Source: Callorhinchus milii | Lineage: Eukaryota | DNA: 64,000 nt | Direction: 5' to 3' | NCBI RefSeq assembly: GCF_018977255.1 | Contig: NW_024704763.1 | Location: forward strand, 2,914,001-2,978,000 | Shown here: positions 7,985-60,000 of the stretch, in pieces | Layout: each line of letters begins with the position of its first letter | Position numbering within the stretch: position 1 is the stretch's first letter | Notes under the pieces: model-generated | What the model was told of the DNA's origin: nothing | Seen by the model: only the letters and a program-made list of their open reading frames with translations | Database searches by the model: none | Program-made: the position numbers and the translations under genes

Positions 7985-10491
7985 ATGAGCGAAGGAAACA
8001 TCGGAAACTCTGGAATGAAGTTCATCATTGGAATCAGCGGGTGAGTGAGTGAGTGAGTGGGTGAGTGAGTGAGACCAGAGTTGAGAGTAAAACGTGGGAG
8101 TTAAGCACGTGCTCTCTTTCTCTGTACCCGGAAGGAACGTAATGTATCGATTCAAATGTATCCATTTAAATGTATCCGTGCGATGTGGCCATTTAAATGT
8201 ATCCATTTAACAGCTGATCGATTTGCAGTCGCTGCATCGCCGGTTACACCTTCTCCATCTCCTGACCTGAGCAGTTGAGGGGGGGCTTGACCCGGGTTAG
8301 GATTATCTGGAACTAAATGGTCAGATTAACACGGGGGTAAGGCCCCAATACCCGAGAGGGAGGAAAATACGGGATCACCCCCTCTCCCCCCAACCCCACC
8401 CCTCCCCCCCACCCCTCCATTCCCCAGATCGGAATCTTCTCAAATGGACATTTTGCACTTTTTAATTTAAAGCCATTTGCTTTCCAAATGGAGAGATTTC
8501 CCCCAAACCCCCCCCCCCCACACCCCCATCACCACCCCCCACCCACACCCCCATCACCCCCCCCCCCCACCCCACCCCCTCTCCCTCTGATCCCAAAGGT
8601 TCCATCCATTTCGATTTGATTGAAACCGAATTGAAAGGATTTAAAGCACAAAAAAAAGCGCTTTTTTTTTCTATTTTCAAACGCTTTATTTTTTTTTGGA
8701 GTGCGCGTGGAAAAAAAAGAGGAAAAACTCGCCTCGCGCAAATATTGGGGCGAAATAAATGTATGATTTGTGGTGTTAAAATCAAATTCCGACCCTCAGC
8801 GCGGGGCCAACCATGTGCTTTCCTTCCACATCTTTTGTCTCCCGAATCGGGAAGGAAAGGGGGAAAACCGCCCCTTTTTTTTTGATGGAGGGGAAGGGAG
8901 GGGGGGAAAATGTGTTGCTTTATTGGCGAAAGTTTCGCAAAAGTTTATTACAGAAATCAAAATAAATGTTTGTTGAAGCGCTGTGTCCCGCGGGGATCCG
9001 ATACCCTGGGAATTGTTAGGGAGAAGAGCGGAGGCAACATCGCCACGTGGGACCGGGGACAGATCGGTGCAGTGCCGGTGTCCGGTTGACTTGTCTTTGT
9101 TGTAGAGCTTTCTCTCTCTCTCTCTCTCTCTCCTCTCTCTTCTCCCTCAGACCTGTTCAGGATGAATTTTTTTTTAAACAAAAATGATCCAGTGGTTATG
9201 TCCCGTGGAGGGATTTCTTTTATTTCTATCTAACTGTTTTTTTTTTTGGTGGGGTGGGGGTTTTGTCTGGACTTTTAATTTCTCTGAAATTCCCTGTTGT
9301 ATCCAGGGGTGATATGGGGTGGGGGTGGGGGGGGGGGGGGAGAGTGTACCAGTGGAGTCTCCTTGGACCTGAACTGGCTCCCCCAGGTGATGTGTTTGGC
9401 AACGGAGGGTCAGAATCGAGCCAGCCCTCCGTGGCGGTCTCCGTAGTCCAGTTCCTGAGCCAGGCGGGTCAGCGGTATTCCAGGGCGAATCCAACGTGGG
9501 GCTCGAGCCCAGAAGGCTTTGACCCACAGGCAAGAGGGCTGCCAACCTGGCGTTCTCGCTTCTGAGTCAGAAGGTTGGGTTCAAGCCCCACGTCGGGACC
9601 TTGGAATCATAGTCTAAACCAGCGGTGGCAACGATGATGCCAGCCGTCAAAATGCAGCCTGACCCTCCAGTGCTGTACTGAAGTAGTTAGTTGTGGGTTT
9701 GTGGGTTGTTAAATAGGCTTTTGGTGAGAGGCTGAACAATGCCCTTCTGTTCTGGTGCTTCAGGTAAACGTTACAGAAACCACAAGCGGGAAACTCTCTT
9801 GGTGTCCTGGTTTAGTCTATCCCTACCTCCTAAATTCATCCTAACCTGATTTCCATTTAGTTATTCATCTTTCTGCTGCCCAGATTAGCTCCTGTGAGAT
9901 TGCCTAGATAGCAACAGCCACTCCACTCTGCATATGAGTAGCTCATTGTGTGAAATGATTCGAGAGACACTGTGACTTGATATTCGAAAAGAGACAGGAG
10001 TTTCCATCTCTCCCGGTGTCCTGGCCAACGATCCCCCAAATTAAATTAGCCACTCACTTTGTGGCTGTTTATGAAAAATTGCTGTGTGCAAACTGGTTGC
10101 CAGGTTTCACCCTCAAAATATACAGTATATCCTGAGAAGCACTTTGTACGTCTTGATGATGTGTTAAGACGCTATATCAGAGGCAAGGATTATTATTAAG
10201 ACGCCAGATCAAATGCAACTGTTAGTCTCCGATGCCTGAGCACAATGCTGCTCTGCTCTGTGTCTGGACAGTGTATTTATTATAAACTCTTTACTCTCTC
10301 TCTAGTGTCACTAATGCTGGTAAGACCACACTCACCAAGCAGCTCTTTAAAGCCCTACCAAACTGCTGTGTGGTGCACCAAGATGAATTCTTTAAGGTGA
10401 GGTTTTGCACTTACACTTTTAAGCAGTGAGTATAAATGTGGTGATGTCGTGGGTAGATAAAGCAGAGACCACAGCTTCTTTTGAAGGGAAA

Positions 10492-10549
<58 letters not shown>

Positions 10550-12940
10550 GAATGAGGAGGGATTGGGCAGTGAGCCAGAGAATGGGATTGGATACTGTGG
10601 CTCATGTGGAGAAAAAAACACCAGCTCAGACGTGATGAACCGAACGACCTTTTTTTATGCTGCAAGGTGTGATGTTGAATGAAAAATGCTTGAATGAGCA
10701 CTTGATCAATTTTCTTTCTGACATCAATATTAATTCAGCTTCATCACTTTGGTGGGTGAAGATTTGATATGGGGGATGAATGGTGGGTTTCCAGATCTTT
10801 GGGGTGGGTGGGGGGAGAATAATCACTGCTTAAGAATCTCCTGGGAGCATTTTTTTCTGCCCCAAATAACACTACAATTGGGAAGCTCATGACTGTTTTC
10901 AGCACTTGTGCTAAGGTCAAACCTTTTAGGTATGTTTACAAAGGCCATGCTAGCTGGACTTAATTGTACGTTAAAGAATCGCTGCTCAGGCTCCAATAGT
11001 GGGTTAGTGGGTAAATGCATTGCTCACTAACCCGACGAGAGTACTTACAAGAGGGGTGCAGTAACAGACCAGAAGGTTTGAATCTGTGTCCACTAAATGG
11101 GCTGATCTCAGTTGGGGGTACAATTGGCCTTGACAGCCCTGGTTTTGGGAGGGGAGATTAGCCAGGCTTCCCTCTACTGATCACTTTTAAGTGATATTAG
11201 GAAGCTATTAGGTGAAATAAGAACTTTCTATCCAGTCCAGCAAATCCCTGGCATTACAGGTCAGTGGGAAGTTTCCTCTTGGGCTAAGGTTTGGCCCTTA
11301 GGCTGAATGGCTGGTTGTGTACCTATTGCTGTTCACCAAACATGGGTTGGCAATGCATATGTATTCTGTGATCGCTATGTTTCAGCCCCAGGATCAGATC
11401 GAGGTTGGTGAAGATGGCTTTAAGCAGTATGATGGTAAGACCACAGGTCTCACTTTAACCTCAACTGCACGTAGTCCAACACTCTTGTTGGAGTAATGCA
11501 CCCCTGTGACTGTTCATTTCAAAGTGTGTTAACACTATTTTGCCCTAAGCAACTCTTCAGCTCCCTGTTATCCATAACAAAACTTACAGTATGCGGGTCT
11601 ATCCTTTTATTAAATTAACAAAAAAAAAGCATTTTGTGCATGTCTAAATGCACATCAACTTAAAAGTTATTTCCGTTTGTTCTGCCCTGTTTGCAGTTAT
11701 CACGGCATTAGATATGGAAGCCATGATGAATACCATCCGAGCGTGGATTAAAGACCCAGTGAAATTTGAGCACTCGCACGGCATCAACCCGCTGGAAACT
11801 GAACCCAAACCGAAGACTTGGGACAACAGAATCCACATCCTCATTGTCGAGGGCTTCCTCCTCTACACCTACCAGTAAGAGCTCAGTCACCAGCACTCTC
11901 GCATTCTTGACTTGTTTGCGATGTATTTTAATAATATATATAATTTTTAATTGTATTTATGAAGCACCTGTAAACGTCAATGTCTCACTGCGCTTCTCGG
12001 GCAAATTTGTGCCAACGTGGATTGTGATAATTTAACAATCCTTGCATTTGATACAGCACCTTATCACGTCATTGAAACGTCTCACAGTGCTTCACAGAAT
12101 CCATTGAAAAGTGGATTGACTGTGTATTCTGTGGGTGAAATGCAGCAGCCAGTTGCGCACAGCAGCGTCCCACAACCAGGTTCCTACTTACTGCTCGGTA
12201 AACAGGCGTGTAGAGTAAGAAGACTTGCCTAAGGTTTCGCCCCACCTGGGAATCAAACCTGGATCCTCTCACTTAGGAGGCAAGCGTGCTTACCACTACA
12301 CTACGGATCTCCTGCGCACGAGGGAGATTTTCCCGAAAGTGGAGCATTGGACTCGTGATTTGACCAATTGCCGGTTGCTTTTGTCCACAGACCCCTGATT
12401 GACATGTTCCACATCCGCTACTTCCTTCACATTCCATACGAAGAATGCAAGAAACGGAGAAGGTAAAGCTCGAAAGACCCCCCCCCCAAAAAAAAATCTT
12501 CCCCATTTCCTCTTTCTCCTCCACCAAAGCTTTGGTGTCCAACTTCCCAACACGAGTCTCTTTAGTGATGCTCCCTTACTATTGTTTGCAGTACAAGGAA
12601 CTACTTGGTACCTGATCCACCTGGGCTGTTTGAGAAGCACGTGTGGCCCATGTACCTGAAGCACAATCAGATGATGGAGGACATGGCTGTTAATGTGGGT
12701 GAGTCAATCTTCTGCAAATCTGTCTTCGCTTCTATACTCAAAAATGGGGATATTCCAGTGCTCCCAACATGTAAGTTCAATTCACTTGAAACGCCTGTCT
12801 GATATTCTTTCTCATCCTTCTTGTGAAATGCAGTGAATTTGGATGGAACTAAATCAAAGGACGAAATGTATAACTTTACGTATGGTGACATCCAGAACCA
12901 GATTGACCAATATCTCGAAGAACTGAGAAGTGAGTCCTGA
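7985..12940 (+). CDS. NMRK2: Nicotinamide riboside kinase, NMRK2/MIBP-like (7 coding exons, about 209 aa from ATG 8015)
   Basis: join(7985 or 8015..8040, 10306..10396, 11386..11434, 11697..11874, 12391..12462, 12592..12698, 12834..12940, or donor after 12929). All introns GT-AG with compatible phases. Protein: [17 protein letters not shown] (P-loop)...[29 protein letters not shown]...[11 protein letters not shown]...[32 protein letters not shown]...LDGTKS. Closer to NMRK2 than NMRK1. True orthology and the last exon are uncertain. Confidence 0.9.
10493..10548 (+). repeat. (GATT)n microsatellite
   Basis: Pure GATT run in NMRK intron. Confidence 0.95.
12030..12305 (-). mobile_element. tRNA-derived SINE in NMRK intron
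   Basis: Reverse-complement tail, body and head (GGAATCAAACC...ACCACTACACTAC). Confidence 0.75.
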
Positions 12941-15017: not shown

Positions 15018-24865
<9,848 letters not shown>

Positions 24866-32258: not shown

Positions 32259-34307
32259 CTACGAGCGTTTGGCCGGTTTGGCGATCAGCTGCCTCTCGCG
32301 CTCCAGGTCTCTCTCTCGCTGCTGCTCTCGCTCTAACTCCTCCTTCTGTCTCTGCTGCTGAAGTTTCAGGGCTCGTCTCTGCCAGCGATCATAGTGAAGG
32401 AAATGTGGGGGTTATTGTTATTAGTATTATAAGATGAGGCACAGTTACCTCTGGCTATGGCTGTTTTGTGCTCCCTCACTATTGTACTGGAGCATCATTG
32501 ATCTTAAGTCATGCTGCCTGCTCAAAGACACACAGGTTGAACAGGAGGCTAGAGTTCTACCAGCTGAGCCCTGATATTCTGCCACGTAACTTGTCCTAAC
32601 CACCTGCCTATTTACGATGTTCTCTCAACAACAGCATCATTACATTTACACAGCACTTTTCAAGTCATAAGGATGTCCCAAGGTGCTGGACAGTTAAGGG
32701 TTTGCACTCAAGCTGCTCCCAGCTGCATGAGCCAGTGAGACAAACGGGAATAAAACACACTTCACTTGCCTTCAGTTTGGTTGTCTTTTCGTGCAGGGTG
32801 ATCATCTCCTTGCGAATGTTAACCAGTTTGTTGTGGTAGAATTTAGCTTCTGCGAACTAAAGGGAAAGAACACAAAATATTTTAAAAAGACGAATTGATT
32901 CAAAATATGTTCACAAATACTTACACATCAAAATTTATATTATATCAACTGAAGATTATGTGTAAAAAATATAGTTCCGGAGTGCGCTGCCTGAAAGAGG
33001 GGTGGAAGCAGATTCAATAATAACTTTCAAAAGGGAACTGGATATATATACACTCGAAAAGAAAAAAATGTACATGTCTATGGGGAAAGAGCAGGGGAGT
33101 GGGACTCGTTGGATAGCTCTTTCAAAGATGCAAGATTTTTGCCTCCTTCTGTGCTGTAGGATTCTATAAAACGCATCAAAGCACTTTGCAGTAATTGCTG
33201 TCATAATAATTTAGTCACTCAATCCACAACGGTTCAGATGTAATTTTGTATCGTACTGTGCATGTCTTGTACTTACAAGTGCATTGATATCCAGCACTAA
33301 ATGGCACTCCTGGAATTTGCAGATCTCTTGTTCCAAGGTGTCCAACAGCACCAACTGGTTCTGTCTAAAACAATTTGAAACAATATATAATAGTTTGTGC
33401 ACACACGCAACAAAGCTGCCTCTCATATAAAGACGCAAGACATGCTATGCTGCTCCCACTATCAGTTCAACCCATTCCCAAAGCGAATTGCAACTGTTTG
33501 AACGAGAGGAATGTTTGCATAAACTTACGTCAGTTCCTGGAGGGAGCTTTTGGATCGCTGTAGGTCAGGGAGGTAGTGGGAGATCAACCCCTCTGTCAAT
33601 TTTTCCACCGTCTCTTGGTCAACAGGCATTGCTTCGCTGGAGCTCTCACACTCTGCTTCGAGTTCTTTACGATTCACACCACAGGAGAAACATAATAATA
33701 ATTCATGCATCTTTCTGAAGTGAAGGGCACTAAGTGTAATTTGTTGTTGTTGTTGTTGTTGACATAGCGCCTTATCACGTCTTTGAGATGTTTCAAACTT
33801 AACAGTTGTGGGTTGAGTGACTAAACTATTATTTTTTTAGGGATCATTACCCAGGAAAGCGATCCACCAATAGACTAACACTCGAGTTCCTACTTGCTGC
33901 GTGGGGAGTTCCTACTTACTGTGAGGCGTGAGGAGTAAGGAAACTTGCCGAAGGTTTCGCCCCGGCCGGGAATCGAACCCGGACCCCGTCGCTTGCGAGG
34001 CGAGCGCTCTGACCATAATGCTGCAGGGCTCCACTGCAGGAAAATGGCTGTGGGCGGGGAACGAAGCGTCACCAGAGGGTAGCCTCGGAGGGAGACCCTC
34101 AGGTTGTTGCTCGTCATCCTGAGAAGCCCTTTTCCTCAGTGGGCTTTTCCCTACAGCAACTTGCTGCGCGTCTCCACGTTAATCAGGAGGTTCATACTTC
34201 CTGTGCCACCTGTGCGACCCAAGCCAATTAATCTCACCTGCCGAGCCATCACCTGGAAGTGAAGCGGTGCGTGGAGGAGCTTCGGAACTTGTCTTCTCCG
34301 GCTCCAT
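32259..34307 (-). CDS. BLOC1S6: BLOC-1 subunit 6, pallidin (5 coding exons, 166 aa)
   Basis: complement join(34238..34307, 33529..33664, 33277..33364, 32770..32856, 32259..32378). Protein: VEKLTEGLISHYLPDLQRSKSSLQELTQNQLVLLDTLEQEI...LDINALFAEAKFYHNKLVNIRKEM...RALKLQQQRQKEELEREQQRE...AKPAKRS*. Intron 4 is GC-AG. Exon 1 is assigned by phase and is less certain. Confidence 0.93.
32977..33168 (+). mobile_element. CR1-like LINE 3' end in BLOC1S6 intron
   Basis: GCTGCCTGAAAGAGGGGTGGAAGCAGATTCAATA...CCTCCTTCTGTGCTGTAGGATTCTAT. Confidence 0.75.
33745..34028 (-). mobile_element. tRNA-derived SINE
   Basis: Head GGGAATCGAACCCGG...CGCTTGCGAGGCGAGCGCTCT plus partial body. Confidence 0.75.
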
Positions 34308-34399
34308 CGGTGCCCACGAAAGGGAGCCTTGTTGTTGGTGGTGGGGGGAGTGGGGGGGGGGGTGGGGGCGGGGGGAGGAGGGGGCACGAAGCGAGCGAG

Positions 34400-35555
34400 G
34401 GTCCGTTTCGGATACTTCCTGCGATGTTTCCCTCCCTCCTAACGTCCAGGCGACTGCAATCAACCAGATTGAAGAGAGTCAGTCAGTCAGTCAGTCATTC
34501 CGCTCTCCAACGTCCCCGGCGTCGATTCGAGCACATCTGACGCAAAACACACTGCACAGCCGGTGTGTCCCCCCCACCCCACCACCCCGAACCCACCCCC
34601 ACCCCCACCCCCCCACCCCCACCCCCCCCCGAGGAAGCGCTTCGAGACGTCTCGACGACCCGATAACGGCGCCGCATCCAAAAGCGACGACTGTCAAGAA
34701 ACAAGTTAGGGTTTGCGACGGCGCCTTTCAGGTCGGGAGGGGCGGCCCAGCCCCCCCCCACCCCCCCCACCCCCCACCCCCGGCCAGCGCCTCGGGGGGA
34801 GGGGGGGGGAGGGGGGGGCCTTCACCCCCGACGTGGAGGCGGCGCGACCGCAAACGCCGTCTGTTGCGTTGTTTCGTTGTTGCGCTGCGGTTGTAAAAAC
34901 TATTATTATTATTATAAGAGACTGTGAGAGGTCCAAATTCATCACATCATACACCCCCTCCCCCTCAAACCCCCCCCCACCTCACCCCAAACCCCCCACA
35001 ACCCCCCACCCCAAACCCCCCACAAACCCCCACCCCAAACCCCCCCACAACCCCCCACCCCAAACCCCCCACAACCCCCCATCCCAAACCCCCCCACAAC
35101 CCCCCACCCCCCCCCCCCACCCCCAGTGTGTGTGTGTGTGCTGAGGGAGAGGGAGAGGGAGGGGCGGCTCCTGGGGGTCGATCGTTGTAGCTCCGCTTGT
35201 AGGAAAGGCCGAGGCCGAGGCCTTCCCCCCCCCCCGCACTCCCCGCCCCCCCGCGCGGCCGCCAAGGACCTGGAGTTCCCGACAGGTCCCGAGACCCCAC
35301 CGCGAGCGCTCGGTGTACCTGCGGCCGACCTCGGGCCTCGGGAGGGAGGGAGGGAGGGGGCGGGGCCACCGCAACCCCCCGCCCATCAGCGCGAAACCCC
35401 GCCCCCTCCCTCGCTCACTGACGCGCTCACGCCCCGCCCCCCTTTATGCCGAAGCCCCGCCTTCCGGTCACAGACCCCTCCCCCTCCCCCCCCACCCCCC
35501 GGCCTGACATCAGCTGTGAGAGAACATTTAAAGGCCCCGCCCCCACCACCATCTC
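34400..35555. promoter_or_regulatory. CpG island and probable divergent promoter region of BLOC1S6 and SLC30A4
   Basis: High CpG and GC content, several GC boxes (CCCCGCCCC, GGGGCGGGG), ETS site CTTCCGG at 35461, C-rich tandem tract 34955-35125. Lies between head-to-head genes. Confidence 0.65.
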
Positions 35556-36924
35556 CCCGACACCCGGACACCCAGACAGACACCCAGACACCCCGACACC
35601 CAGACAGACACCCAGACACCCCGACACCCAGACAGACACCCCGACAGACACCCCGACACCCAGACAGACACCCAGACACCCAGACAGACACCCCGACAGA
35701 CACCCCGACACCCAGACAGACACCCAGACAGACACCCAGACAGACACCCGGACACCCAGACAGACACCCAGACAGACACCCCGACAGACACCCCGACACC
35801 CAGACAGACACCCAGACAGACACCCAGACAGACACCCCGACAGCCAGACAGACACCCCGACACCCAGACAGACAACCGAACACCCGGACAGACACCCCGA
35901 CACCCAGACACCCTAACACCCAGACACCCTAACACCCAGACACCCTAACACCCAGACACCCTAACACCCAGACACCCTGACACCCAGACACTCTGACACC
36001 CAGACACTCTGACACCCAGACACCCTAACACCCAGACACCCTGACACCCAGACACCCTGACACCCAGACACTCTGACACCCAGACACCCTAACACCCAGA
36101 CACCCTGACACCCAGACACCCAGACACTCTGACACCCAGACACCCAGACACCCAGACACCCAGACACTCTGACACCCAGACACCCAGACACTCTGACACT
36201 CTGACACCCAGACACCCTAACACCCAGACACCCTAACACCCAGACACTCTGACACCCAGACACCCTAACACCCAGACACCCAGACACCCTGACACCCAGA
36301 CACTCTGACACCCAGACACCCAGACACCCTGACACCCAGACACCCTAACACCCAGACACCCAGACACTCTGACACCCAGACACCCTAACACCCAGACACT
36401 CTGACACCCAGACACCCTAACACCCAGACACCCTAACACCCAGACACTCTGACACTCTGACACCCAGACACCCTAACACCCAGACACCCTAACACCCAGA
36501 CACTCTGACACCCAGACACCCTAACACCCAGACACCCAGACACTCTGACACCCAGACACCCTGACACCCAGACACTCTGACACCCAGACACCCTAACACC
36601 CAGACACCCTAACACCCAGACACCCAGACACTCTGACACCCAGACACCCTGACACCCAGACACTCTGACACCCAGACACCCTGACACCCTAACACCCAGA
36701 CACCCAGACACTCTGACACCCAGACACCCTAACACCCAGACACCCTGACACCCAGACACTCTGACACCCAGACACTCTGACACCCAGACACCCTAACACC
36801 CTAACACCCAGACACTCTGACACCCAGACACCCAGACACCCAGACACCCTAACACCCAGACACTCTGACACCCAGACACCCAGACACCCTAACACCCAGA
36901 CACTCTGACACCCTGACACTGTGA
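35555..36924 (+). repeat. Compound minisatellite of 8-nt units (CACCCAGA, CACCCCGA, CACCCTAA, CACTCTGA, CACCCTGA)
   Basis: Direct inspection, about 1.35 kb. Confidence 0.95.
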
Positions 36925-37248: not shown

Positions 37249-37385
37249 NNNNNNNNNNNNNNNNNNNNNNNNNNNNNNNNNNNNNNNNNNNNNNNNNNNN
37301 NNNNNNNNNNNNNNNNNNNNNNNNNNNNNNNNNNNNNNNNNNNNNNNNNNNNNNNNNNNNNNNNNNNNNNNNNNNNNNNNNNNNN
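37249..37385. other. Assembly gap (137 N)
   Basis: Run of n. Confidence 0.99.
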
Positions 37386-37690: not shown

Positions 37691-38723
37691 GGATCAGGTA
37701 TGATGGACTCTCTGTGTTGAGTCCGAAGTTGATCGGTGAGAGCAGTGACAACCTCTACGTCGTTAATAACCGGATCGGGTTTTTAAGTCATGAACGAGAG
37801 TAATACTGGAACTCTCGATCCTTTCTCGGGGCGGTTTCCTTTTGCACTTGATGGAGGAATTGTGTGTGTGAGTGAGTATTCGTGTCGGGAGGGGGTGGGA
37901 GGGGGTGGAATCGTGAGACTTCCCAATCTTCAGTAAACTTTCCAACCAGTTTAGCATTTCTTTGGGGTGTTGTTGTTGTTGTTGTTGTTGTGTGGAGGGG
38001 GGAGTGGGTGGTGGTGGTGGTGGTGATGGTGATGGGGTGGAATGATCGAATGCTTTTGCGTTTGCATAGGCGAGAAGGAAGGAAAAGGGAGGACTGGAGG
38101 GAAGGAAGTGTTCCTGTTGGAATGGGTCAGAATTGCAAAGGCAGCAATTACTGTACATGTACCGAAAGAGAAAGAAAAAGAGAGAGAGAGGGGAGAGAGA
38201 GAGAGAGAGAGAGAGAGGTAAGGGAGGAGGAGGAGGAGGAGGAGGAGGAGGAGGGATGAAATAAATTGTTGTTTTTTTTTTAATTGGAACGATCTGATCT
38301 GCCCGAAAATGTCATCCTGTTGGAATAGCCTGGAACCAGCCCGGACATTGTGTACTGCTGCTCACTCACACTCACCCCAACAGCTGCCAGGTTTGCCCAG
38401 ACAGGGCTGAGAGGCAGTAAAGTTATTATTTTTTTATTGTGACATCGTGTTCCTTGAAGGCATGAACCGTGCGGTTCTTTTTCATGCCTTTCCCTCCCCC
38501 CCCACTCCCCACTCCCCACTCCCTGAACTCCTTCTCGTTAGTCAGATAGCATCATCCGTGTGCATTATACCGGAGTAGTGCGGTTAATGATTGTCTTGTC
38601 TCTCAGGCAATGGAGTGTCAGTAGATTGGAGGAGAACTTCAGGTGGAAGCGAGCACATTCTCGGGAGCTGCTCCGATCAACCCTAAGCTCTCCGAGCCTG
38701 TAAATCCCGACATTTGGATGACC

Positions 38724-41700
38724 ATGGCCAGATCCACCTGGGACACCTTCAAGTCCTATCTCCGCAAAGGCGATGGCACGAGTCATCTGACCAGTGACAC
38801 GGTCACCCTGGATTTCTCCGATGACATGGTGGAGGAGGAGGACGACCTGCCCAAATTCGGCAACGCCAACCAACTCCGAGTGGTCGCCTCCGACATGTTT
38901 AGCGAGATTGCCCACGTGCCCACGCTGGTTTGTAACGGGAGCTCCGTGCCCAGTGTCGGGAACCCAGACCCGCAGCAGCCCTATGACGGCTTGCTGTCCT
39001 TCGAGTCCCAAGCCGGGCTTCAGATCCCCAAAGCAGATGCGGTGGAGAAATGCGATGGTTGCACTAAAACTAGAGAGTTGATGAGGCAAAGGACCGTGAA
39101 GAGGAAACTCTGGATTGCCATAACTCTCTACGCTCTATTTACCATCGGAGAGTTCCTGGGTAATTTTTTTCTTCTTTGTGCTTTGCAGAATGCAAGTTTC
39201 GATTTTCTTAAAATCAGGATAAAATTGGTCACAGGGTAAGATTGACTTGTTTGTGGGACATTGCTGTGCGCAAACTGTCCACATGTTTTGCCCATGGGAT
39301 GTCTCGACGATGCGATAAGGCGCTATATCAAATGCAAGGATTATTTAGTTATTTAAGTTTGTGCCATCGTCCTCTCCCCACGGCTATTATTCTGTAAATG
39401 CATTCTCGTAGTGTATTGTTCAGAGCACTCGCCTCGCAAGCGAGAGGACCCGGGTTTGATTCCCGGGCAGGGCGAAACCTTAGGCAAGTTTCCTTACAAA
39501 TCACTTTTCGGGGATAATAATAATAATAATTAAAAAAATGATTTGCTCGCTCAATCAACGACTGTTTGTGGAACACTGCCGTACGCAAGTGGGTGACATT
39601 GTTCGCCCACAAAATGCGCAGTCAATCCACTTTCCAATATTATTCTGTGAAACGCTTTGAGACGTCTCAACGATGTGATAAGGTGCTATGTAAAATGCAA
39701 GGGCGATTTCGACTCCTTTTGAACTGCACATTTGATGGTTCTGAAACCCTCAGTTAAAACCTCGTAACCATTCCCAAGCGTTCATTCTTGTTGGTCTTTA
39801 ATGTGTTCCTACAGGTGGCTTTCTCTCCAATAGCCTGGCTGTTATGACTGATGCTGTGCATATGCTGGCGGATGTTCTTGGAATTGCTGCCTCTCTTTTC
39901 GCACTATACCTCTCTGGAAGGTCTCCAAGCAAACGGTTTACCTTTGGCTGGCACCGGTTTGGTATGTGACCCTTACCTGCTGGGGGTCGTTAAGATTGTG
40001 GTCATCATGACTTGGTTTATTCCGTTGATGTGTTTTGCATGTATAAAAGCTCGGTGCCGTTGACCAACTCGGTTTAGGGTTCGAAGCATCGATGGATGTT
40101 TCGTCAGTGCACTTCTGCCAGTGATGACATTCCCAGCAGTTAGTGGGATGCAAACATATTACTGTACAACAATAAATGGTGAGATATTACAGGTGTCTGC
40201 TTAGTGGTAACGCTTTCTCCTTTGAGTGAAAAAGTTATGGATTCAACCCCGACTTGAGTTTATACTGTAAATCAGTGCTAGGCAGTGCTGTGTTGATGGA
40301 GGTGGTGTTCTATGAAAGAGATTTTAAACTCCACCTGTAGATTTTAAGTATTGTATAACACTATTCAGGAATAGTTTCTCCTGGTGTCCTGGCCAACAGC
40401 TCTTTCTCTACATTGACCTTGTGGTTGTTTGTGGGAGGAACCTACCTTGCTATGCACAAAATGCCTAAGACAGTTAACTTATTTTTTTTGTAAATACTTT
40501 GAGAGGCTTTGATGCGATAAAGTGCCACAAAAATACAAGTGCGTTCATTTCTTTTCCCCACCAAACATTTCGATTTGAATTTCAATGTTTCATATGGAGT
40601 TTAATTGGCCAGTGTGAGAGCTCAGCACACATTGTGGATTTTCTAGTGTCACATTGAGCCAGTATATTGAAAATGAAAAGAACTTGGGGAGAAAAATAAT
40701 CATTGACTGATTTCACTAAAAGCCCTATTTGCCTTCTGGAAGACTGCTCTTAAAGCAATACTGATTATTGCCACATCCAACAGTGTTCAGCTTGATATTT
40801 CGCAAATGCTTCAGCTAGTTTTGACCATTTATTTCTGAACAGGTGATAAAGAAATGGAGCGGTACAGCATTGGGATAGTAATAGAAAGGGATAAAGTAAA
40901 ATATATAGAAAGGGCAAAGGATGTGGAAAGGAAGGTGAGGGGTGATAAGCGTTAGAGCTTTATCAAGGGAGTTCTGTAGCATAGTGGTTAGCGCGCTCGC
41001 CTTGCAAGCAACAGGACTCAAGTTCAATTCCCTGGTAAGATAAAACCATAAGCGTGTTTACTTCCTCCACACGTCTCTGTTTACTTAGCAGTAAGTAGGA
41101 ATACGGTTGTTAGTCGATTGGCGTATTGGGTTTCTGGGCGTAATAATCCCTCAAAAAAATATTGGCCACTCAATCCATGAGTGTTTGTGGGACACCGCTG
41201 TGTGCAATTGACTGCAGCGTTTTGGGTGGGTTTCCGCATGTGTCCAGACACATGGCTACAGCATTGTCTCTGAAGAGATTTGAGATATTTAATTATGTGA
41301 ATGGTGTGTTTCAGTGCTCTATGCATTGCTGTAACTGTTGGGTTTAATGTTTAAGAGGGCAGCTCGTTTATTGGTAATTAAATGCGCAGTGAGCAATTGC
41401 TGCAGTTTGCAAAGCTTTGCACTAATCGGTAAACCAACAAAGAGCTGTATCTGTACTTTGAGTGTGGTTACTTTGTACCTGACCCTGTCAGATCTTTGTC
41501 CTGCACTGTGCGTTGATAGTGAAACAGTAACTGAAAATGGATTTCTCTCCTCGCTGCACGCGCAGTTCAGAAAATCTACCGTGTACAGCTGTTGAGAATG
41601 CGCACTTATTTTAACCCATATTTAACCGAGTGCCAAGCCATGCGCTGCAAGGCTAGGGACACCGGATCCGGTTATGAAACGCAAATTTGCGCCAAAACTA

Positions 41701-44700
41701 TATTACCTCTCCCCTCGGCAGGATACGGCCTGCTCCAGGTCCCCCGCCCGGCCCGCCCCACCTTAGGCAGTCGAGCCTTCAGCTTCTCAGCCCCTACTCT
41801 TTGGAACTCCATCCCACTATCCCTTCGCCTTGCTCCCTCCATTGGCTCCTTCAAGGCACGTCTCAAGGCTCTCTTCTTCGACCGCGCCTTCGGTCACCCT
41901 CCTACCCGTACCCTCCCTGCATTCCAACCCCCCTGATCCCAACCCCCTGCTCGGGTCCAAATCCCTGACTGTCCAGGCCTTGGGCACTGGGTAAATATAA
42001 TTTGTTGCTTTTGTTCCAAACTAAGGCTATACCAGGAACAAGGATCCATTTTAAAAGGTTGTTGTTGTTCACTTGCAAACCGATGTCATTCAGATGACTC
42101 CCAGTCCTGGATAAACCAGGTTGTCATAAGCCTTTGACTTGATCCGAAGTCTTCAGGGGATATTTCTAATGATCACGTCTGTGATGTTTTGAACTGGAAA
42201 CTCCCTCTTGTACCCAAAAGTTGGGCGGATCCTGTAAAATTTCATCTTCCGGTCCTCAGTCCATCTGCTTAATTTGTGCAGGGTTTTTTTTCAGTCTTCC
42301 CTACATTGTTCTCAAAGCTTGATGTCAGCGGCAAATGTACAGTACTCACTTCCACACTGCTTATGGATACCACAAATTGGCACCTTGAAGGATGGCCATT
42401 TTCTCGAGGAAATCTCCTGTGTATCACGCAAAGTCGTGAAACCTCGGCTCGCACCAGAGATTTCATCAGAGTGACTTTACCCAAATTACAGGGATTCTTG
42501 GACAAATTCTCACCTTGACTGGGTGGGGGGCTGGCAGTTGTGGAGTCCTGTAGCGTAGTGGTTAGAGTGCTCGCCTCGTAAACGAGAGGACCCGTGTTCG
42601 ATTTCCAGGCAGGGCGAAACCTAAGTCAAATTTCCTTACTCCACACGCCTAGCAGCAAGTAGGTATCTGGTTGTTAGTTGATTGGTAGATCACTGTTGGG
42701 AGGTAATAATTCCTCAACAAAAAATGTGGTTACTCAATCCACGACAGTTTGTGGGACACTGCTGTGCACAATTGGCTGCTGTGTTCCACCCAAAAAAATA
42801 CAGTCATTATGCTTTACAGTGTATTCTGTGAAGCCATCTCAATGATTTGATAAGGAGTTATATCAAATGCAAGGATTATTATTATTATTATTGCCAGCGG
42901 TTACACCACTAGTGTGTTCTTAAACTGTCCATGTTAATCCCAAACATCCACTCATACAACATCACTGTCAGGTAGCTGTGTGCGAGAGTTCAAGACAGTT
43001 ATGTAATATATAAATGATGCTTCTTGCATTGTTTATGATAATAATAATAAATAATAATATGATCCCACATTACCTAATGCAAGGTGTTAATAAAGAACAC
43101 AAGCTCAACGTTTCATCCAACAAAAAATATCCGGCTAGTATGCGGCTAATCGTAGATATTTCTGACTTTGTTGCTCACTAGTCATCTGATATTGAATCCA
43201 GAAGAGCCATGGACTAATGTAGCTCCACTGGCTACCAATCACAGAACAGATCAATTTCAAGATCACTCTCACTCGTCTTGCCCTGGCACCTTCCTACCTC
43301 TTCAATCTGCTTAGTCCCCACTCCACTGCCTGCTGTCTCCGCTCGGCTGGCTCCAGCCTTCTGCGTGCTCGTCATTCCCTCCGCTCCACCATTGTCGGCC
43401 ATGCTTTCAGCCACTGCGCCCCGAAGCTTTGGAACTCTCTCCCTTAATCCCTCTGCCTTGCCCCCTCCTTCACCTCTTTCATATCATGACTGATCAGGAC
43501 TACAAATCATGACTATAAATGTAAGTTGTTGTTGTTGTGTGCTGTATTGACCAAGGCTAAATTCCTCCCTTTCGTTCTCCAGAGGCTATGGCTGCCATCA
43601 TCAGTGTTATTCTCATCTACTGTGTGACTGTCTGGCTTGTGTTTGAAGCCATACAGAGGACGATACACCAAGATTTCGAGATCAATGCAGACGTGATGAT
43701 CATCATAGCTGCGGTCGGAGTAGCAGTTAACATCATGTAAGTCTGGTGCTCTCTCACTTTATTTGATGGCGGGGTAGGGTTTTTCAAATCCAATTTGGGA
43801 TGAGTTTCCTGAGATCACTTTATATTAATCCAGAGTGAGATGGGTTTCTTCAGAGGCCTTTATGTTAATCCAGAGCCAACTGAAAGAAATGTGAAGCCAT
43901 CCATGCTTCAAATTACTGGAAGAAAGTGCGGTGATCAGAAATGACTGAAAATCTCCAAGATCTATCCTGTAGACACTGTGAGGTTGCAACTGAGTCATGC
44001 AGCAAAGGGAATTAGTGATGTTACTGTAAAAAGGACTTTCTGGTCACTCCCAATAGGACTAATTCCTGGCTTACTTTGTGGCACAGTATACGTGAGTTAA
44101 ATAGTTGCAATACAGCCACCTGCTAACTTTACTCTGTATCTCGACTAAAGATGAGCCAAAAAAAACTCTGGTTGTCTGAATGTCAAAAATACTCTTGAAT
44201 CGGAATGAAAGGCTCTTTGCTGCTTAGTTAATGTGCGACAGGATGGAGTGCTGTGTCCTAAGCGAGTTTCTTTTTATCCTTAATTGTTACCAGGCAGCGC
44301 ATGTGAAATCCGCACTCATGGCCCTGTGCATCCGAACTGCAACCGAGTAGAGCCTTATTGAGTAGGTTAGAGTCTGAAACAGGAGATAATTAAGATGAGA
44401 TGAGCAGGATATAACCCCATCCAGTAAATTACCTCCATTACCGGAGTCTGGAGATAGACAACTTCCAAGCCCAACTGGTTTAACCTTTGTTTCACGATGA
44501 AGAATCACTCCTAAAAATAGCCTGACATTTTTGTTTGGGGATCTTGGGTTAATAATTCCATCAAGTTTTTGAATACAGTACGTTGATGTTATAGTTAATC
44601 CTTTAATCCCCTCTCGCTTGTTTGCCAACGTTCCTGCTGCTGACTCTGTATGTTTACTCATTAGAGCTTGTTTTTTGGCCTGGTATATGCAACCACCTTG

Positions 44701-47244
44701 ATTTTTTGAGGTGCTTGGATTTGAACCAACAAATGGAGCATTTATTTTTGGTCAGCTGGTTCCCATATGCATGCAGAAACTCATCACCAAAATACTGATG
44801 GTTCCACATATGAGTGCTTTTCATTTGTTTGGTATGAAGTGTGTACTCCTCTCACTCTCTCTCTCTCTCCCTCTAGATGTATTCATCCTGTTTGTCTAAG
44901 TTTTGGACAGTTTAGGCACAGTTTTGACAAAAGCTTGGGGACCTCACAGTATGCTAGAATTTTTCCAGCTAAAACCAGGTAGCTTGCAATAATGAACAGT
45001 GGCAAGCTTCCCACTGTTTGCCGGCTAGGACCAACCTACCTGGTAGAGCCTTGGTGGGTCATTTCTGCTCGGAACAGTGAAGAGTACAGACTTTTCCCAG
45101 AATGGAAGATAAGTGAATGACTAGACCAGTGGTAGCCAAACAGTGGCTCCCGGGCCAGAAGTCGCCCATTCGGCCATCAAGAAGTGACCCCTCAATAGCC
45201 GCATGAGTCTAGATAAATCGTGTTCGATCGTTAGTGTGTTTTCAATTTTTTCTTGATTGAATATTTCTTGATTTATGGCAAGAAAAATTCTTTTGATGAC
45301 CATTTATAAAGGTTGGCCGCCACTGAACTAGACCTTTAAGATTCTAGACCAATTGGGCATAGAACCTCTGGATGCTGGACACTTAGTACCACTGTCAGAC
45401 TGGGGTGGGGGGGTGGGGAAAGGTGTATGCAATGTATAGTGCAGTGGCAATGTGTTTCAATGTACAAGTCTTTTTCACCCCCTTCTCGTGTGCTTCCATT
45501 TCTCCTGATGTAACAGAATGGGCTTTTTGCTCAACCAGTCAAGTCACTTGCACTCTCACTCTCACTCGCACTCGCACGGGCTGTCAGGACAAACTGTGCG
45601 CGGAGGTCAAGGGAGTGCTCACGGACACAATCACAGCGCAGGCAGCTTGGCAGTAAGAGCAGCTTTCATCCACGCCCTGGGGGACTTGTTGCAGAGTGTT
45701 GGCGTGCTGGTCGCTGCTTACATCATCCGATTTAAAGTACGTGTTGCATTTCACTCCACTTTACAGTATACCCTGTGAAGCGCTTTGAGACGTCTCGACG
45801 ACGTGATAAGGCGCTGTATCAAATTCAAGGATTAGTATTATTCCCTCTCCTATACCCCTCTATTACCTATTGACACAATTGACAAATTGATTTGTTCAAG
45901 CACACGGCCTCTGTTCTGGTTGCTCCTCAACGATCTTCACTGTTTTGGTTTGACTTTCACAGCCAGAGTACAAGATCGCTGACCCAATCTGTACTTACAT
46001 CTTCTCTTTCCTCGTGCTGTGCACAACATTACGAATCCTGCGGGACACTGGGATCATCTTCTTGGAAGGTAAGGGGATTTATTTTAAATTTAAAAATTGT
46101 TTATTATTTATTTTCAGACAGTGACAACACCCAGAATTGGGGGACAGGGAAGAGCAGTATTGAGACTAGAATCCTATAGAGACAGCGTGTCTGATAAAGG
46201 TCATTCACTTTATGGCTGTTTGTGGAACGGCACTGTGCACATAGTGGCTGTTTAAACATGCAGTCACTGCACTTTACAGTATAGCATGTGAATAATTTTG
46301 AGATGTCTTTCCGATGTGAAAGGCGTTGTATCACTGTGCAATTGCAAAGCTATATGGTGAGATGGTGGACAACGTTTGCACTAAATGCAGGGGAATGATT
46401 ATTATAGTGTCTAATAGCCACTAATTTATATACAAAGACCTTAAGAGTTGCTGCTGTGGATGCATTAACGCTTCTGTCTCTGACGTTCTGCCCACAGGTT
46501 CTCCGAGTCATTTGGACGTCCATTGCATACGGGAGATCTACTAAAAATCGAGGATGTTTACTCTGTCGAAGATCTAAACGTTTGGTCTCTGACTGTGGGC
46601 AAAACAGCAGCCATTGTGCACTTAAAGCTAGGTATGCACACTGCCTTTTAAACTTGGTTACTTGGTAACGTAGCACCATCCTAGCTTAGACCTGGCACCT
46701 GAGAAAGGTGTCATAATAATAATATTTGCATTTGATACAGCGCCTTATCATGTCGTTGAAATGTCCCAAAGCGCTTCATAGAATATATTATCATATATTA
46801 TAAGTGAATTGACTGTATTTTTGGGCAAAACGAGACAGCCGAGTGTCCCAGTGATATAACAAATGCAAGGAATGTTATTTATTATTATTTGCATCTCTAT
46901 TCATATTTATCCCTTTTAGATATTTGTCTTAATTCATTTTTACAGCTATTATGAATTCTGTTTCAGCAATCAGTTCCATGTTCAAATAAGCCTGTGCATA
47001 AGACTCCCCTGTACTCTCCTTGTTTTTTTTTTGTAGTGTGTGTGACAGACGTATAATCCACCTCTTTTTTGTTCATCCAGTTCCAGAGAGTTTCTCCAAT
47101 TGGGAAGAGGTTCAGTGCAAGGCTCGACAGATATTGATGAACACCTATGGGATGCACCAATGCACTGTGCAGCTGCAAAGCTATAGAGACGTTGGTAACA
47201 ATCTTTGCACTAAATGTAGGGTTTCAGACAATCAAAATATCTGA
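38724..47244 (+). CDS. SLC30A4: Zinc transporter 4 (ZnT4), 7 coding exons; 1-nt frameshift in the 6th as assembled
   Basis: join(38724..39159, 39815..39961, 43583..43736, 45517..45736, 45963..46068, 46498..46631, 47081..47244). ACCATGG Kozak start. Motifs: [14 protein letters not shown] (TM2 HxxxD), His-rich loop [23 protein letters not shown] (TM5), [19 protein letters not shown]...CTVQLQSY. 453 aa if one base is restored near 46533. Confidence 0.93.
39403..39700 (+). mobile_element. tRNA-derived SINE in SLC30A4 intron
   Basis: AGAGCACTCGCCTCGCAAGCGAG...GGTTTGATTCCC head plus body. Confidence 0.8.
41700..41990 (+). mobile_element. L2 LINE 3' fragment
   Basis: [30 protein letters not shown]...[14 protein letters not shown]. 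Confidence 0.8.
42543..42892 (+). mobile_element. Full-length tRNA-derived SINE
   Basis: GTAGCGTAGTGGTTAGAG / GTTCGATTTCC head through to a (TTA)n tail. Confidence 0.85.
43220..43540 (+). mobile_element. Degraded L2 3' fragment
   Basis: CACTGGCTACCAATC...TTCAAGATC (HWLPI...FKI) and (TTG)n tail. Confidence 0.65.
45127..45325. mobile_element. hAT (Charlie-like) MITE
   Basis: TIRs CAGTGGTAGCCAAAC / GGTTGGCCGCCACTG. 8-bp TSD GACTAGAC / AACTAGAC. Confidence 0.75.
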
Positions 47245-57021: not shown

Positions 57022-60000
57022 TCACTTGTATTTCTTCAGCATCTCCAGCTCTTCCAAAGGCCTCCACTCCTGGCTGATGGTCCTGAGCTGTGGGAGAACA
57101 AGACACACAAGGGAAAGGCTCATTCGGCTTCTCAACCAACACACAGGCATATAGTACAGGATCATAGACAACAATCCCATTTGGCCCATCATGTCTGTGC
57201 CTCTGATTTCTCCCACACCCTCCGCCCATGCTGTTTAATATACAACAAAACAACAACTTGCATTTATGTAGTGCCCTCCACACCGGGCGCTTTTTAAACA
57301 CCTCTCCTTTCAGAAGTCTAGCAAATTCCCTTTTAAAATAATAATGATAATAATCCTTGCATTTGATATAACGCCTTATCATGTCGTTGAGACGTCTCAG
57401 AGCACTTCACAGAATATATTGTAAAGTGAATTGACTGTATAAAACGTGGGTGAAACGCAGCAGCCAATTGTGCACAGCGGCGTCTCACAAACAGATGTCA
57501 AATTGAATGACAAAATTATTATTATTATCTTTTTTACATATAGAAAAGATGGAAGTTGTTTCAGTCATCGTGTAACAGAGTTCCATATTCCAACTACCTC
57601 TGCCTAAAGATTTGTTTGTCCCCTCCAATCTTCCCTTTAATTCCTCGTATCCTTATGTAGTCTGATACTATCTTGTTCGCCTGCTGCAGGTGATGTTTAC
57701 ACACAACAGAACAAATGGTGGGCCCCAAGGGGAAAACCAATTACACACCTGCTGGAGAGAAAATGGGCAATTCTGACGATTTCCCTTTAAGAGGCGAGAG
57801 ACAAATGACGGGCAGCGAGGCACCCAAGGTTTTTTTTCCATTAATTTTTAATCATCCTGCAAACACCCAGGGGTGGGGCGAGTCAGGTAACTGATTGCAC
57901 AGCGATAGTTTCCCTGACAATCGACAGATCGAAGAAACAAAAACATGTATAAATAATGCAAGGCTTCCTGCGATGCACAGATCCACAAGGACTTTACTGT
58001 GAAGTGTAGTGACTCGTCTATAAACCCCTTCACTCCCTGGCTCTTCTTTGACCGCTTTGTCCCCACTCCACTTACCCGTTGCCTCGCCTGGTTCTGGTCT
58101 CCTGCTCATCCCTCGTGCCCTCAGCGCCCTGAAGCTTTGGAACTCTTCCCCCAATCCTTCCTCTGCCTTGCCCGCTCCTTCCCCTCTTTTAGATCACTAC
58201 TGAAGACCTTCCTCTTCAACCGTGGTCACCTCCCCTATCTCCCTGTCTCAGGGTTAGGCTCTTTCACTGTTAAGCGCTCCAGAACACTGCCCCACATGAA
58301 GGGTGCTGTGTAAATGCAAGTTATTGTTGTTGTTGTAGTGACTGTGTATTTGTAAGTGAATGTGGCAGTCAGTACCTTCTGAGGTTTGGTTGGATCGATA
58401 TTCTCCCATGGAGTTGGATTATTTCTTTTATCGATTCTGAGACAAGAGCAAAAACTGTTTTTATTATTATATGAAAAAGAGAGAAAAACACAATCGTATC
58501 ATTTCTGAGTAAATAAATATTGCAATTTATAATCCCGAGAATTGGCAGTGATTGGGGTGATGATTATTAATCCATCACAGTTGGCAATTTGGGGGGGGGG
58601 TTGGAGCGAGAAAAAGAATTCTGTGCTCTGGGAAGTTCATGTGGCAAAAAGGTCTTACAAAAACATGCGCAAAATGCAAATGAAAAAAACATTAGTTAGT
58701 TGTGGACCCGCCCTACCCGGAACTGGGAAATATTGGACTTGTGTCCGTAGGTGGGGGAGGGAGAGGCGGAGGGGGTGATTGCTAGATAACTAAAGTAACA
58801 AAGAAAACTGGATCAATTTGTAGTATAAGTGGCAACAAGTGTGATCGATAGGCGAGTGTTTCAATTTATTGTACATTAGTTTATTAAAGTATTACTTATT
58901 GTATATTATTTAGTGTGTATTAGTTTATTGGGTATTAGTTTGTTGGTTATTAGTTAATCGGGTATTAGTTTATTGTGGATTAGTTTATTGTGGATTAGTT
59001 TATTGGGTATTGGTTTATTGGGTATTAGTTTATTGTTCATTAGTTTATTGTTCATTAGTTTATTGGGTATTATTTATTGTGCATTAGTTTATTGTGGATT
59101 AATTTATTGGGTATCAATTACAATTCATGAAAACGGCTCTTACATGACATCGCTCTTGGTCAGAAGGAAGTAGATGGCGGTGGAAGTGGCTCCCGTGGCC
59201 GCACAGAGCATCAGCCCGACTATAGGGATGAGCTGCGAGAGAGACAGAGAGGGTCAGAGGCATCCAGTTAGTCCCACAGCAGCCACCGGTCTCACCCTCT
59301 CTCTCCCACACACACAAATCACTGTCGACCACTGACCCCCTGATCCTTGATCCCAGGCTGTCAATGACCATCCATGCAGCAGAGTGCAGGGCTTGCTTTT
59401 ACCCATCATAGAATCGTACAGCACAAAAAGAGGCCATTCGGCCGCAAAGTTTCAGATCTATTATTATTATTTAATAAACTTGTAGTCAATTTATTATTAA
59501 ATCCCTAACAGCGGAAAACGACTCAAAACAGCCGAGAACCGCGGAATAATAATAACAACAATAATCACCAATGATTATTATTAATCCATACTACTGATTC
59601 ATTATGAATAATATTATTAATAATAAGCCTTGCATTCAACACAGAGCCTTATCACTTGGTTGATATTATTTTGGAAGATATCTGCGAACACGGTAGATAT
59701 TTTCAAACATATTTAAATATTTTACAGATAATTTTAAAAAATATAATTTTTTAAAAAAATGGTAATTTAACTCATATCTACTGCAGTTCCAGGTAATTTT
59801 GAGTCGTTTTCCGCTATTTTTAAGTGTTGGGTCCCCTGTATTAAAGAGCCAGTCCCAGTTTTAGGTGATATTCTCTTGGGTCAGCTCTGTGAAAAACAAC
59901 AACCTGTTTTATTCTCTCTCTCGATATATACATATATATCTATATGTTAACCATCTAATTTTATCAAAACATGTAGAAATCCCCATTCGATTCCACAGGT

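What the first reader, a model, noticed from the sequence alone, without database searches (positions are those of the whole stretch)
7985..12940. Intact NMRK gene beside SQOR: candidate third vertebrate NRK ohnolog
Seen: a complete NMRK2-like gene with the P-loop, the catalytic Asp (QD) and the IVEG Glu, tail-to-tail with SQOR. Known: human NMRK1 is on 9q21 and NMRK2 on 19p13.3. The SQOR-BLOC1S6-SLC30A4 block on 15q21 has no NMRK, but 15q21-22 is paralogous to those regions (DAPK1/2/3, PRUNE2/BNIP2/ATCAY, SEMA6B/6D). Inference: this is a separate genome-duplication paralog lost in mammals, possibly related to fish mibp genes, and automatic pipelines would label it NMRK2. It has NRK1-like positions (FIIGISGV, KQYD, LDGTKS) on an NRK2-like backbone, plus a longer loop before HILIVEG.
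Basis: partly seen in the sequence, partly recalled or inferred. Interest (0 to 1): 0.75.

Follow-up and report, generated by a model that had tools for sequence, protein, structure and literature searches.

The report
Third vertebrate NAD-salvage kinase (mibp2)
This elephant-shark gene, already named mibp2 in databases, belongs to a third line of vertebrate nicotinamide riboside kinases found from sharks to birds, likely born in an early genome doubling and likely lost in mammals, and its fish counterparts are among the most abundant transcripts in nucleated red blood cells.

Summary
The gene is real, intact and spliced. It has 8 exons, not 7, and its 235-aa product is identical to RefSeq NP_001279459.1, Callorhinchus milii mibp2. 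Trees place it in a clade spanning chimaera, shark, coelacanth, ray-finned fish, amphibians, reptiles and birds, sister to NMRK2 and separate from NMRK1; one shark, one bichir and one gecko species each carry all three. Placement inside NMRK2 is rejected (AU p=0.004). Chicken 'ITGB1BP3' beside BLOC1S6 on chromosome 10 is this gene, on a paralogon-7 sister chromosome, which fits a genome-doubling origin. Refinements: the gene is not unnamed; the plain three-ohnolog branching order is weakly rejected (p=0.03-0.04); the 'NRK1-like' residues are old shared states or chimaera-only, while both published specificity sites are NRK2-like (predicted ATP-preferring, uridine-accepting). No mammalian member appeared in capped hit lists; monotremes and marsupials are untested. 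Published tables put mibp2 in the top 20 transcripts of salmon red cells and the top 50 of turbot blood. I found no paper treating it as a third NRK. A known kind of enzyme, an overlooked paralog, and a testable red-cell lead.

The parts
7985..8040 (+). mibp2 coding exon 1 (start codon; first half of the P-loop)
   Evidence: N-terminus equals NP_001279459.1; a contig end in one run joins its last bases to exon 2 (loose ends)
10306..10396 (+). exon 2 (P-loop Lys25/Thr26, catalytic Asp45, Phe48)
11386..11434 (+). exon 3 (Tyr64, Asp65); 49 nt, skipped in some transcripts with a frameshift
   Evidence: (skip in 3 of 4 runs)
11697..11874 (+). exon 4 (variable loop; catalytic Glu117)
12391..12462 (+). 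exon 5 (Arg147, Arg148)
12592..12698 (+). exon 6 (Arg151, Tyr153, Leu154-Val155 at the NRK1 Gln135-Pro136 site)
12834..12929 (+). exon 7 (Lys193 at the NRK1 Glu174 site); splice donor after 12929
15018..24846 (-). SQOR (neighbour, tail to tail)
   Evidence: (E 1e-34 to human SQOR structures)
32259..34320 (-). BLOC1S6 / pallidin (synteny marker; ends approximate)
   Evidence: Snapin_Pallidin E 4.5e-6, below the Pfam cut-off on a single exon
38718..47244 (+). SLC30A4-type zinc transporter (synteny marker)
   Evidence: Cation_efflux E 6e-15; the subfamily name follows from gene order
59143..59235 (-). exon of a C15orf48/NDUFA4-family gene (synteny marker)
   Evidence: B12D E 7e-7; C10H15ORF48 is listed in the same chicken block

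Best explanation
This is mibp2, an intact, spliced member of a third jawed-vertebrate line of nicotinamide riboside kinases, sister to NMRK2, likely split from it in the first vertebrate genome doubling and likely lost in mammals; it is predicted to phosphorylate nicotinamide riboside to NMN for NAD salvage. Shown here: exon structure, identity, clade membership, conserved catalytic residues and fold. Inferred from NRK1 structures: Asp45 activates the ribose 5'-OH, Glu117 holds the Mg water, Lys25/Thr21/Arg151/Tyr153 hold the gamma phosphate, Asp65/Arg148 bind the ribose, Tyr64/Tyr153/Phe48 stack the base. Predicted specificity is NRK2-like (ATP over GTP; uridine tolerated) with an NRK1-like Tyr where NMRK2 has Trp. 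Inferred role: the non-muscle copy, strongest in nucleated red cells in teleosts. Inferred history: NMRK1 branched earlier (most simply a local duplicate on the same ancestral chromosome before the doubling), then NMRK2 stayed on paralogon copy 7B and mibp2 on copy 7D.
For: Identity to NP_001279459.1. Splice joints in contigs of 4 runs from 3 studies. MIBP2 clade 100/98 and 95/95 under a mixture model; sister to NMRK2 99/91 and 90/90; window gene inside NMRK2 rejected, p=0.004. All three paralogs in Pristiophorus japonicus (P0005, P0216, P0431), Polypterus senegalus (P0243, P0235, P0391) and Euleptes europaea (P0035, P0196, P0508). Chicken chromosome 10 list reads SLC30A4, BLOC1S6, ITGB1BP3 and the chicken protein of that name nests with bird MIBP2 at 99; SEMA6D, FBN1, SHC4 of that block are quadruplicate 7D; 7B and 7D parted at 1R. 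Asp45 in 105, Glu117 in 114, Arg148 in 109, Arg151 in 111, Tyr153 in 110 of 114 full-length MIBP2 rows; residue roles from PMC1994991. Model pLDDT 90, best match human NRK1, E 1e-23, target TM 0.9. Val at the Pro136 site in 107 of 114 and Lys/Arg at the Glu174 site in 102 of 114. Salmon red cells: mibp2 79,622 counts, rank 18 of the top 20, against mibp 105; turbot blood: 2052 TPM, in the top 50.
Against: No enzyme assay seen for any MIBP2. The specificity sites are Tempel's structural proposals, not swap-tested in the passages I read. Only hagfish (2 species, one gene type) stands for cyclostomes; no lamprey or amphioxus sequence was listed, so 1R timing and the early NMRK1 split rest on chromosome position plus a weak test (p=0.027-0.041); NMRK1+MIBP2 is not rejected (p=0.17); with invertebrate outgroups NMRK1 falls apart by long-branch pull. 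A tunicate has Leu at one of the two best shared sites. The human positions of NMRK1 and NMRK2 are recalled, not from a call. Mammalian loss rests on capped lists (120 of 331, 120 of 1467, 120 of 1707, 150 of 729 hits). The gene is also expressed in killifish neuroblasts, sole ovary, salmon cell lines and chicken kidney, so it is not red-cell specific, and no tissue data were obtained for the chimaera.
Confidence: 0.65

Rival explanations
1. All three genes are plain ohnologs of one ancestral gene (NMRK1 on 7A, NMRK2 on 7B, mibp2 on 7D), and the tree joins NMRK2 with MIBP2 only because NMRK1 and hagfish are long branches or because of late rediploidisation or gene conversion.
For: Three genes on three sister chromosomes; NMRK1 and NMRK2 both lie near the ohnolog pair PRUNE2/ATCAY (marker positions; NMRK positions recalled). 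Rejection of (NMRK1,NMRK2) is only marginal (p=0.041 mixture, 0.027 LG).
Against: Of majority-state columns polarised by hagfish, 5 group MIBP2 with NMRK2, 1 groups NMRK1 with NMRK2, 0 group NMRK1 with MIBP2; with invertebrates 2, 0 and 1. NMRK1 keeps the Pro and Tyr of hagfish and most invertebrates where both others have Val and Leu.
Confidence: 0.18
2. mibp2 is a single-gene or segmental copy of NMRK2 made in stem jawed vertebrates after both doublings, which landed on a paralogon-7 sister chromosome by chance; it is then not an ohnolog.
For: Short stems between the NMRK2 and MIBP2 clades (0.09-0.2 changes per site) with hagfish outside both; BNIP2, the 7D partner of ATCAY, is some 5 Mb from the block on bird chromosome 10.
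Against: Landing on one of the sister cells of the same paralogon, out of 68 cells, is unlikely by chance; the gene keeps its introns, so it is no retrocopy.
Confidence: 0.14
3. It is the chimaera's NMRK2 moved next to SQOR, or a recent lineage-specific duplicate.
For: No C. milii NMRK2 appeared in the listed hits and no genome was held to search.
Against: AU p=0.004; 76% identity to shark mibp2 against 63% to the same shark's NMRK2-type gene; same position in chicken.
Confidence: 0.02

Closest known systems
C. milii mibp2, RefSeq NP_001279459.1; teleost mibp2
   Same: The same gene: 235 of 235 residues; teleost, gar, coelacanth and shark records named mibp2 are its nearest named relatives.
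   Different: Nothing in sequence. The name implies muscle integrin binding, which the papers I read show only for the human heart clone MIBP/NMRK2.
NMRK2 (ITGB1BP3, MIBP; teleost mibp and nmrk2)
   Same: Sister clade; 59-66% identity; Val at the Pro136 site and a basic residue at the Glu174 site.
   Different: Tyr instead of Trp at the base-stacking site (Tyr in 112 of 114 MIBP2, Trp in 135 of 137 NMRK2); loop about 4 residues longer in most members; other chromosome; 760-fold higher than mibp in salmon red cells.
NMRK1 (human NRK1, PDB 2QSY, 2QT1, 2P0E)
   Same: Fold, P-loop and all catalytic and substrate residues named by Tempel et al. 2007; Tyr55.
   Different: 49-53% identity; lacks the Gln135-Pro136 pair that excludes uridine and has Lys for Glu174; C. 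milii has its own NMRK1 (P0441) on another contig.
Uridine-cytidine kinases UCK1/UCK2
   Same: Same fold class (E about 1e-9).
   Different: 16-21% identity; far weaker match than NRK1.

Membership tests
Nicotinamide riboside kinase family | P-loop with Thr, Lys, Thr, Thr | tested here: met
   Thr21, Lys25, Thr26, Thr27; reference residues
Nicotinamide riboside kinase family | Two essential carboxylates (NRK1 Asp36, Glu98) | tested here: met
   Asp45, Glu117
Nicotinamide riboside kinase family | Nucleoside site: Phe39, Tyr55, Asp56, Arg129, Arg132, Tyr134 | tested here: met
   Phe48, Tyr64, Asp65, Arg148, Arg151, Tyr153
Nicotinamide riboside kinase family | NRK1-type fold with lid | tested here: met
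   predicted model
Nicotinamide riboside kinase family | Phosphorylates NR to NMN | not testable with these tools
   no assay seen for any MIBP2
NMRK2 orthologs | Nests in the clade with mammalian NMRK2 | tested here: not met
   AU p=0.004
NMRK2 orthologs | Trp at the NRK1 Tyr55 site | tested here: not met
   Tyr64; Trp in 135 of 137 NMRK2 rows
NMRK2 orthologs | Binds beta-1 integrin tail; muscle-restricted | not testable with these tools
   published tables show teleost mibp2 in blood, neuroblasts, ovary
NMRK1 orthologs | Nests in the NMRK1 clade; Pro at position 136 | tested here: not met
   C. milii NMRK1 is a different protein
MIBP2 clade | Nests with named mibp2 proteins | tested here: met
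MIBP2 clade | Lies beside SQOR/BLOC1S6 in more than one lineage | tested here: met
   window and chicken by gene name; other lineages not tested
Vertebrate 1R/2R ohnologs | Paralogs on sister chromosomes of one paralogon | tested here: met
   7D; 7A and 7B for NMRK1 and NMRK2 rest on recalled human positions and marker rows
Vertebrate 1R/2R ohnologs | Duplication before the shark/bony-fish split | tested here: met
   each clade holds cartilaginous and bony fishes
Vertebrate 1R/2R ohnologs | Branching order ((7A,7B),(7C,7D)) for all three genes | tested here: not met
   weakly rejected, p=0.041 and 0.027
Vertebrate 1R/2R ohnologs | Single ancestral gene in amphioxus; cyclostome copies date the split | tested here: inconclusive
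   only hagfish and tunicates were listed

The most novel reading that the evidence does not exclude
mibp2 is the ancestral red-cell NAD-salvage kinase of jawed vertebrates: an ohnolog of muscle NMRK2 that keeps long-lived, nucleated, respiring erythrocytes supplied with NAD (perhaps cycling NR and NMN with the co-abundant cytosolic 5'-nucleotidase), and mammals lost it as their red cells lost nucleus and mitochondria.
Probability: 0.2. Interest if true: 0.7.

Novelty: new member of a known kind. Interest (0 to 1): 0.4.

Why it matters
NAD-precursor biology counts two vertebrate NR kinases because mammals have two. Sharks, fish, amphibians, reptiles and birds have a third, and tetrapod databases hide it under the names NRK2, NRK2-like or ITGB1BP3, so fish and poultry data filed under 'NRK2' may belong to a different gene. 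It is a natural hybrid at the specificity sites (Tyr base stack, NRK2-type 135-136 and 174 sites), which would test the published explanation of ATP/GTP and uridine choice. Its abundance in fish red cells and apparent loss in mammals make a concrete, testable question about erythrocyte evolution. The gene itself is already annotated and the chemistry is known, which caps the interest.

Tried and rejected
Genome search for other NMRK loci: no genome held. Idea that the original MIBP clone of Li et al. 1999 was this gene (my recollection that it was chicken): rejected, it came from a human heart library. Single-sequence fold: pLDDT 46, discarded. Pfam gave no hit for P0001, which lacks the P-loop exons. 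Trees with invertebrate outgroups rooted inside NMRK1 and are treated as long-branch artefacts; their AU values (both alternatives p=0.003) are confounded and not used. GATA motifs near the promoter: 1 in 1 kb upstream, 3 in intron 1, against 2.1 per kb in the window, no enrichment. No run was on record as RNA; the four laid runs are guessed RNA, their contig depths were not used to rank tissues. Ohnolog lists: NMRK absent from the Lamb 2021 supplement as held (cut when stored) and from the single small Singh 2015 file. Goody et al. 2010, which may compare zebrafish Nrk2 paralogs, is not held. PMC7755862 was uninformative. Earlier scan findings: none.
Full report
OBSERVATION. Exons at 7985-8040, 10306-10396, 11386-11434, 11697-11874, 12391-12462, 12592-12698 and 12834-12929 have GT-AG ends and one open frame. 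[quoted passage not shown] Contigs of four runs from three studies (guessed RNA) show joints 2-3, 3-4, 4-5, 6-7 and 7-8 in 4 of 4 runs and 5-6 in 3 of 4; joint 1-2 shows only as a loose end in one run. SQOR is on the minus strand with its stop at 15018-15020, followed by BLOC1S6, SLC30A4 and a C15orf48-type exon.

WHAT IT IS. A search with exon 4 found 331 proteins and listed 120; 118 of the 120 class with the window gene, 2 with NMRK2. Named ones are mibp2 of shark, coelacanth, gar and teleosts and 'NRK2' or 'NRK2-like' of amphibians, reptiles and birds. One outlier (sturgeon P0022) pulled a second set (120 of 1467 listed): teleost mibp and nmrk2, shark 'mibp', newt, reptile and bird NMRK2. 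A hagfish/ray/bichir profile pulled NMRK1, including C. milii NMRK1 on a 139-Mb contig against 10.7 Mb for mibp2, and two mammalian NMRK2 (120 of 1707 listed). I picked 58 of the 518 proteins held for a first tree and 35 for a second. MIBP2 is one clade (100/98 with LG+G4; 95/95 with LG+C20 PMSF), sister to NMRK2 (99/91; 90/90), each holding cartilaginous fish, ray-finned fish and tetrapods. Forcing the window gene into NMRK2 is rejected (p=0.004). Pristiophorus japonicus, Polypterus senegalus and Euleptes europaea each have all three genes. Whether C. milii itself keeps NMRK2 is open: no genome was held and none was in the listed hits.

SYNTENY AND ORIGIN. A chicken GWAS table lists SLC30A4, BLOC1S6, ITGB1BP3 in that order on chromosome 10 (PMC7597553); another puts SEMA6D, C10H15ORF48, SQOR and BLOC1S6 in one interval there (PMC13018949). 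[quoted passage not shown] Lamb 2021 (PMC8040251) puts SHF, SEMA6D, FBN1 and SHC4 (human 15, bird 10) in quadruplicate 7D; ATCAY, DAPK3, TJP3 (human 19, bird 28) in 7B; RORB, PRUNE2 (human 9, bird Z) in 7A; and gives the order ((A,B),(C,D)). That NMRK1 lies between RORB and PRUNE2 and NMRK2 between ATCAY and DAPK3 is recalled; contig sizes fit (bird NMRK1 82-86 Mb, NMRK2 5.1-5.9 Mb, several MIBP2 20-25 Mb). Three plain ohnologs should therefore group NMRK1 with NMRK2. With hagfish as fourth group that is weakly rejected (p=0.041; p=0.027), NMRK1+MIBP2 is not rejected (p=0.17), and majority-state columns favour MIBP2+NMRK2 by 5 to 1 to 0. The simplest reading is that NMRK2 and mibp2 are a 1R pair and NMRK1 an older local duplicate; the plain model and a post-2R copy remain rivals. 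Invertebrate outgroups rooted inside NMRK1 and gave no usable root. No lamprey or amphioxus sequence was listed.

MAMMALS. No named mammal is in the MIBP2 class among the listed hits, while mammalian NMRK1 and NMRK2 were listed. All tetrapod-like unnamed MIBP2-class rows nest with frogs, turtles, birds, lizards or snakes. The lists are capped (also 150 of 729, at 50% clustering that could hide a mammal), and Tempel 2007 treats human NRK1 and NRK2 as the human set. Loss in placental mammals is likely; monotremes and marsupials are untested.

HOW IT LIKELY WORKS. Tempel et al. 2007 (PMC1994991) name the NRK1 residues; the alignment to 2QG6 and a column count over full-length rows of 185-260 aa (114 MIBP2, 137 NMRK2, 114 NMRK1, 3 hagfish, 12 invertebrate; 21 ambiguous rows and all shorter or longer ones left out) show every catalytic and substrate residue kept: Thr21, Lys25, Asp45, Phe48, Tyr64, Asp65, Glu117, Arg147, Arg148, Arg151, Tyr153. 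A model on 127 rows has pLDDT 90 and matches human NRK1 best (E 1e-23; UCK about 1e-9). The two sites proposed to set specificity are NRK2-like: Leu-Val for Gln135-Pro136 (Val in 107 of 114; Pro in 112 of 114 NMRK1) and Lys for Glu174 (Lys or Arg in 102 of 114). So I predict an ATP-preferring NR/NaR kinase that tolerates uridine, with Tyr where NMRK2 has Trp. Activity is inferred, not measured.

WHERE IT WORKS. In Atlantic salmon red cells mibp2 has 79,622 counts and a second 'NRK2-like' gene 142,822, both in the top 20; mibp has 105; cell lines have 3.7-4.9 thousand mibp2 counts (PMC10899339). That the second gene is a salmonid duplicate of mibp2 is my guess. In turbot blood mibp2 is in the top 50 at 2052 TPM, near ALAS2, and nt5c2l1 is at 428 TPM (PMC8147184). 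It is also reported in killifish neuroblasts, vitellogenic sole ovary, and chicken Itgb1bp3 is a stable kidney transcript. Gene names in these tables are the authors'. So it looks like a broadly expressed, non-muscle copy with a red-cell peak in teleosts; nothing was measured for the chimaera. Integrin binding was shown for the human heart clone (PMC2174245; PMC8036583), not for this gene.

WHAT IS KNOWN. The gene is annotated and named. Ten full-text searches listed no paper that treats it as a third vertebrate NRK or notes its loss in mammals; a 2025 paper simply calls zebrafish mibp the NMRK2 ortholog, which my tree supports. The library lacks most subscription papers, Goody 2010 is not held, and orthology databases were not seen, so this is weak evidence of novelty. 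Seen of each paper: section 3.4 and supplement rows (PMC10899339); passages and supplement rows (PMC8040251, whose supplement was cut when stored; PMC8147184; PMC12669676); first quarter of the text (PMC2174245); passages only (PMC1994991, PMC7597553, PMC13018949, PMC8036583, PMC5840929, PMC2751788, PMC9514876, PMC7755862, bioRxiv 10.1101/2021.07.04.450918, whose supplements are closed); one small supplement, blank (PMC4504502).

VERDICT. A real, overlooked third paralog of a well-known enzyme family: distinct pan-gnathostome line about 0.97; genome-doubling partner of NMRK2 about 0.8; active NR kinase about 0.9; lost in placental mammals about 0.85; the red-cell explanation of that loss about 0.2. 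Interest 0.4.

Noticed in passing
window 10396 to 11697 (exon 3 skipped): Contigs in 3 of 4 runs join exon 2 to exon 4; the frame ends after 53 residues. RefSeq lists a 164-aa isoform from an internal Met that lacks the P-loop and Asp45 (P0393), reminiscent of the kinase-dead short human MIBP.
   Followed up: partly
proteins P0246-P0377 and P0045-P0112 (unnamed rows): 37 unnamed, mostly truncated and degenerate mibp2-like proteins group with Amphiprion mibp2 (FastTree 89): a possible burst of copies, perhaps by transposon capture, in anemonefish or kin, or poor gene models.
   Followed up: partly
P0049; chicken chromosome 10 list: The chicken gene carrying the old human NMRK2 symbol ITGB1BP3 is the mibp2 ortholog; several turtle and frog mibp2 orthologs are named plain 'nicotinamide riboside kinase 2'.
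   Followed up: yes
window 11354-11385: UniRef V9LA86 (P0001) starts at a Met in the last bases of intron 2, an intron-retaining form without the P-loop.
   Followed up: no
window 35555-36919 and 37386-37691; N gap about 37249-37385: A 1.4-kb array of 8-bp units (173 copies) and a TGAG-rich array flank an assembly gap between the 5' ends of BLOC1S6 and SLC30A4.
   Followed up: no
window 45518-45736: The SLC30A4 exon holds the His-Ser repeat loop typical of these zinc transporters.
   Followed up: no
P0329 (Phallusia), window residues 161-165: The tunicate protein shares the LFEKHVW stretch with chimaera and shark MIBP2, where most vertebrate NRKs read differently; probably convergence.
   Followed up: no
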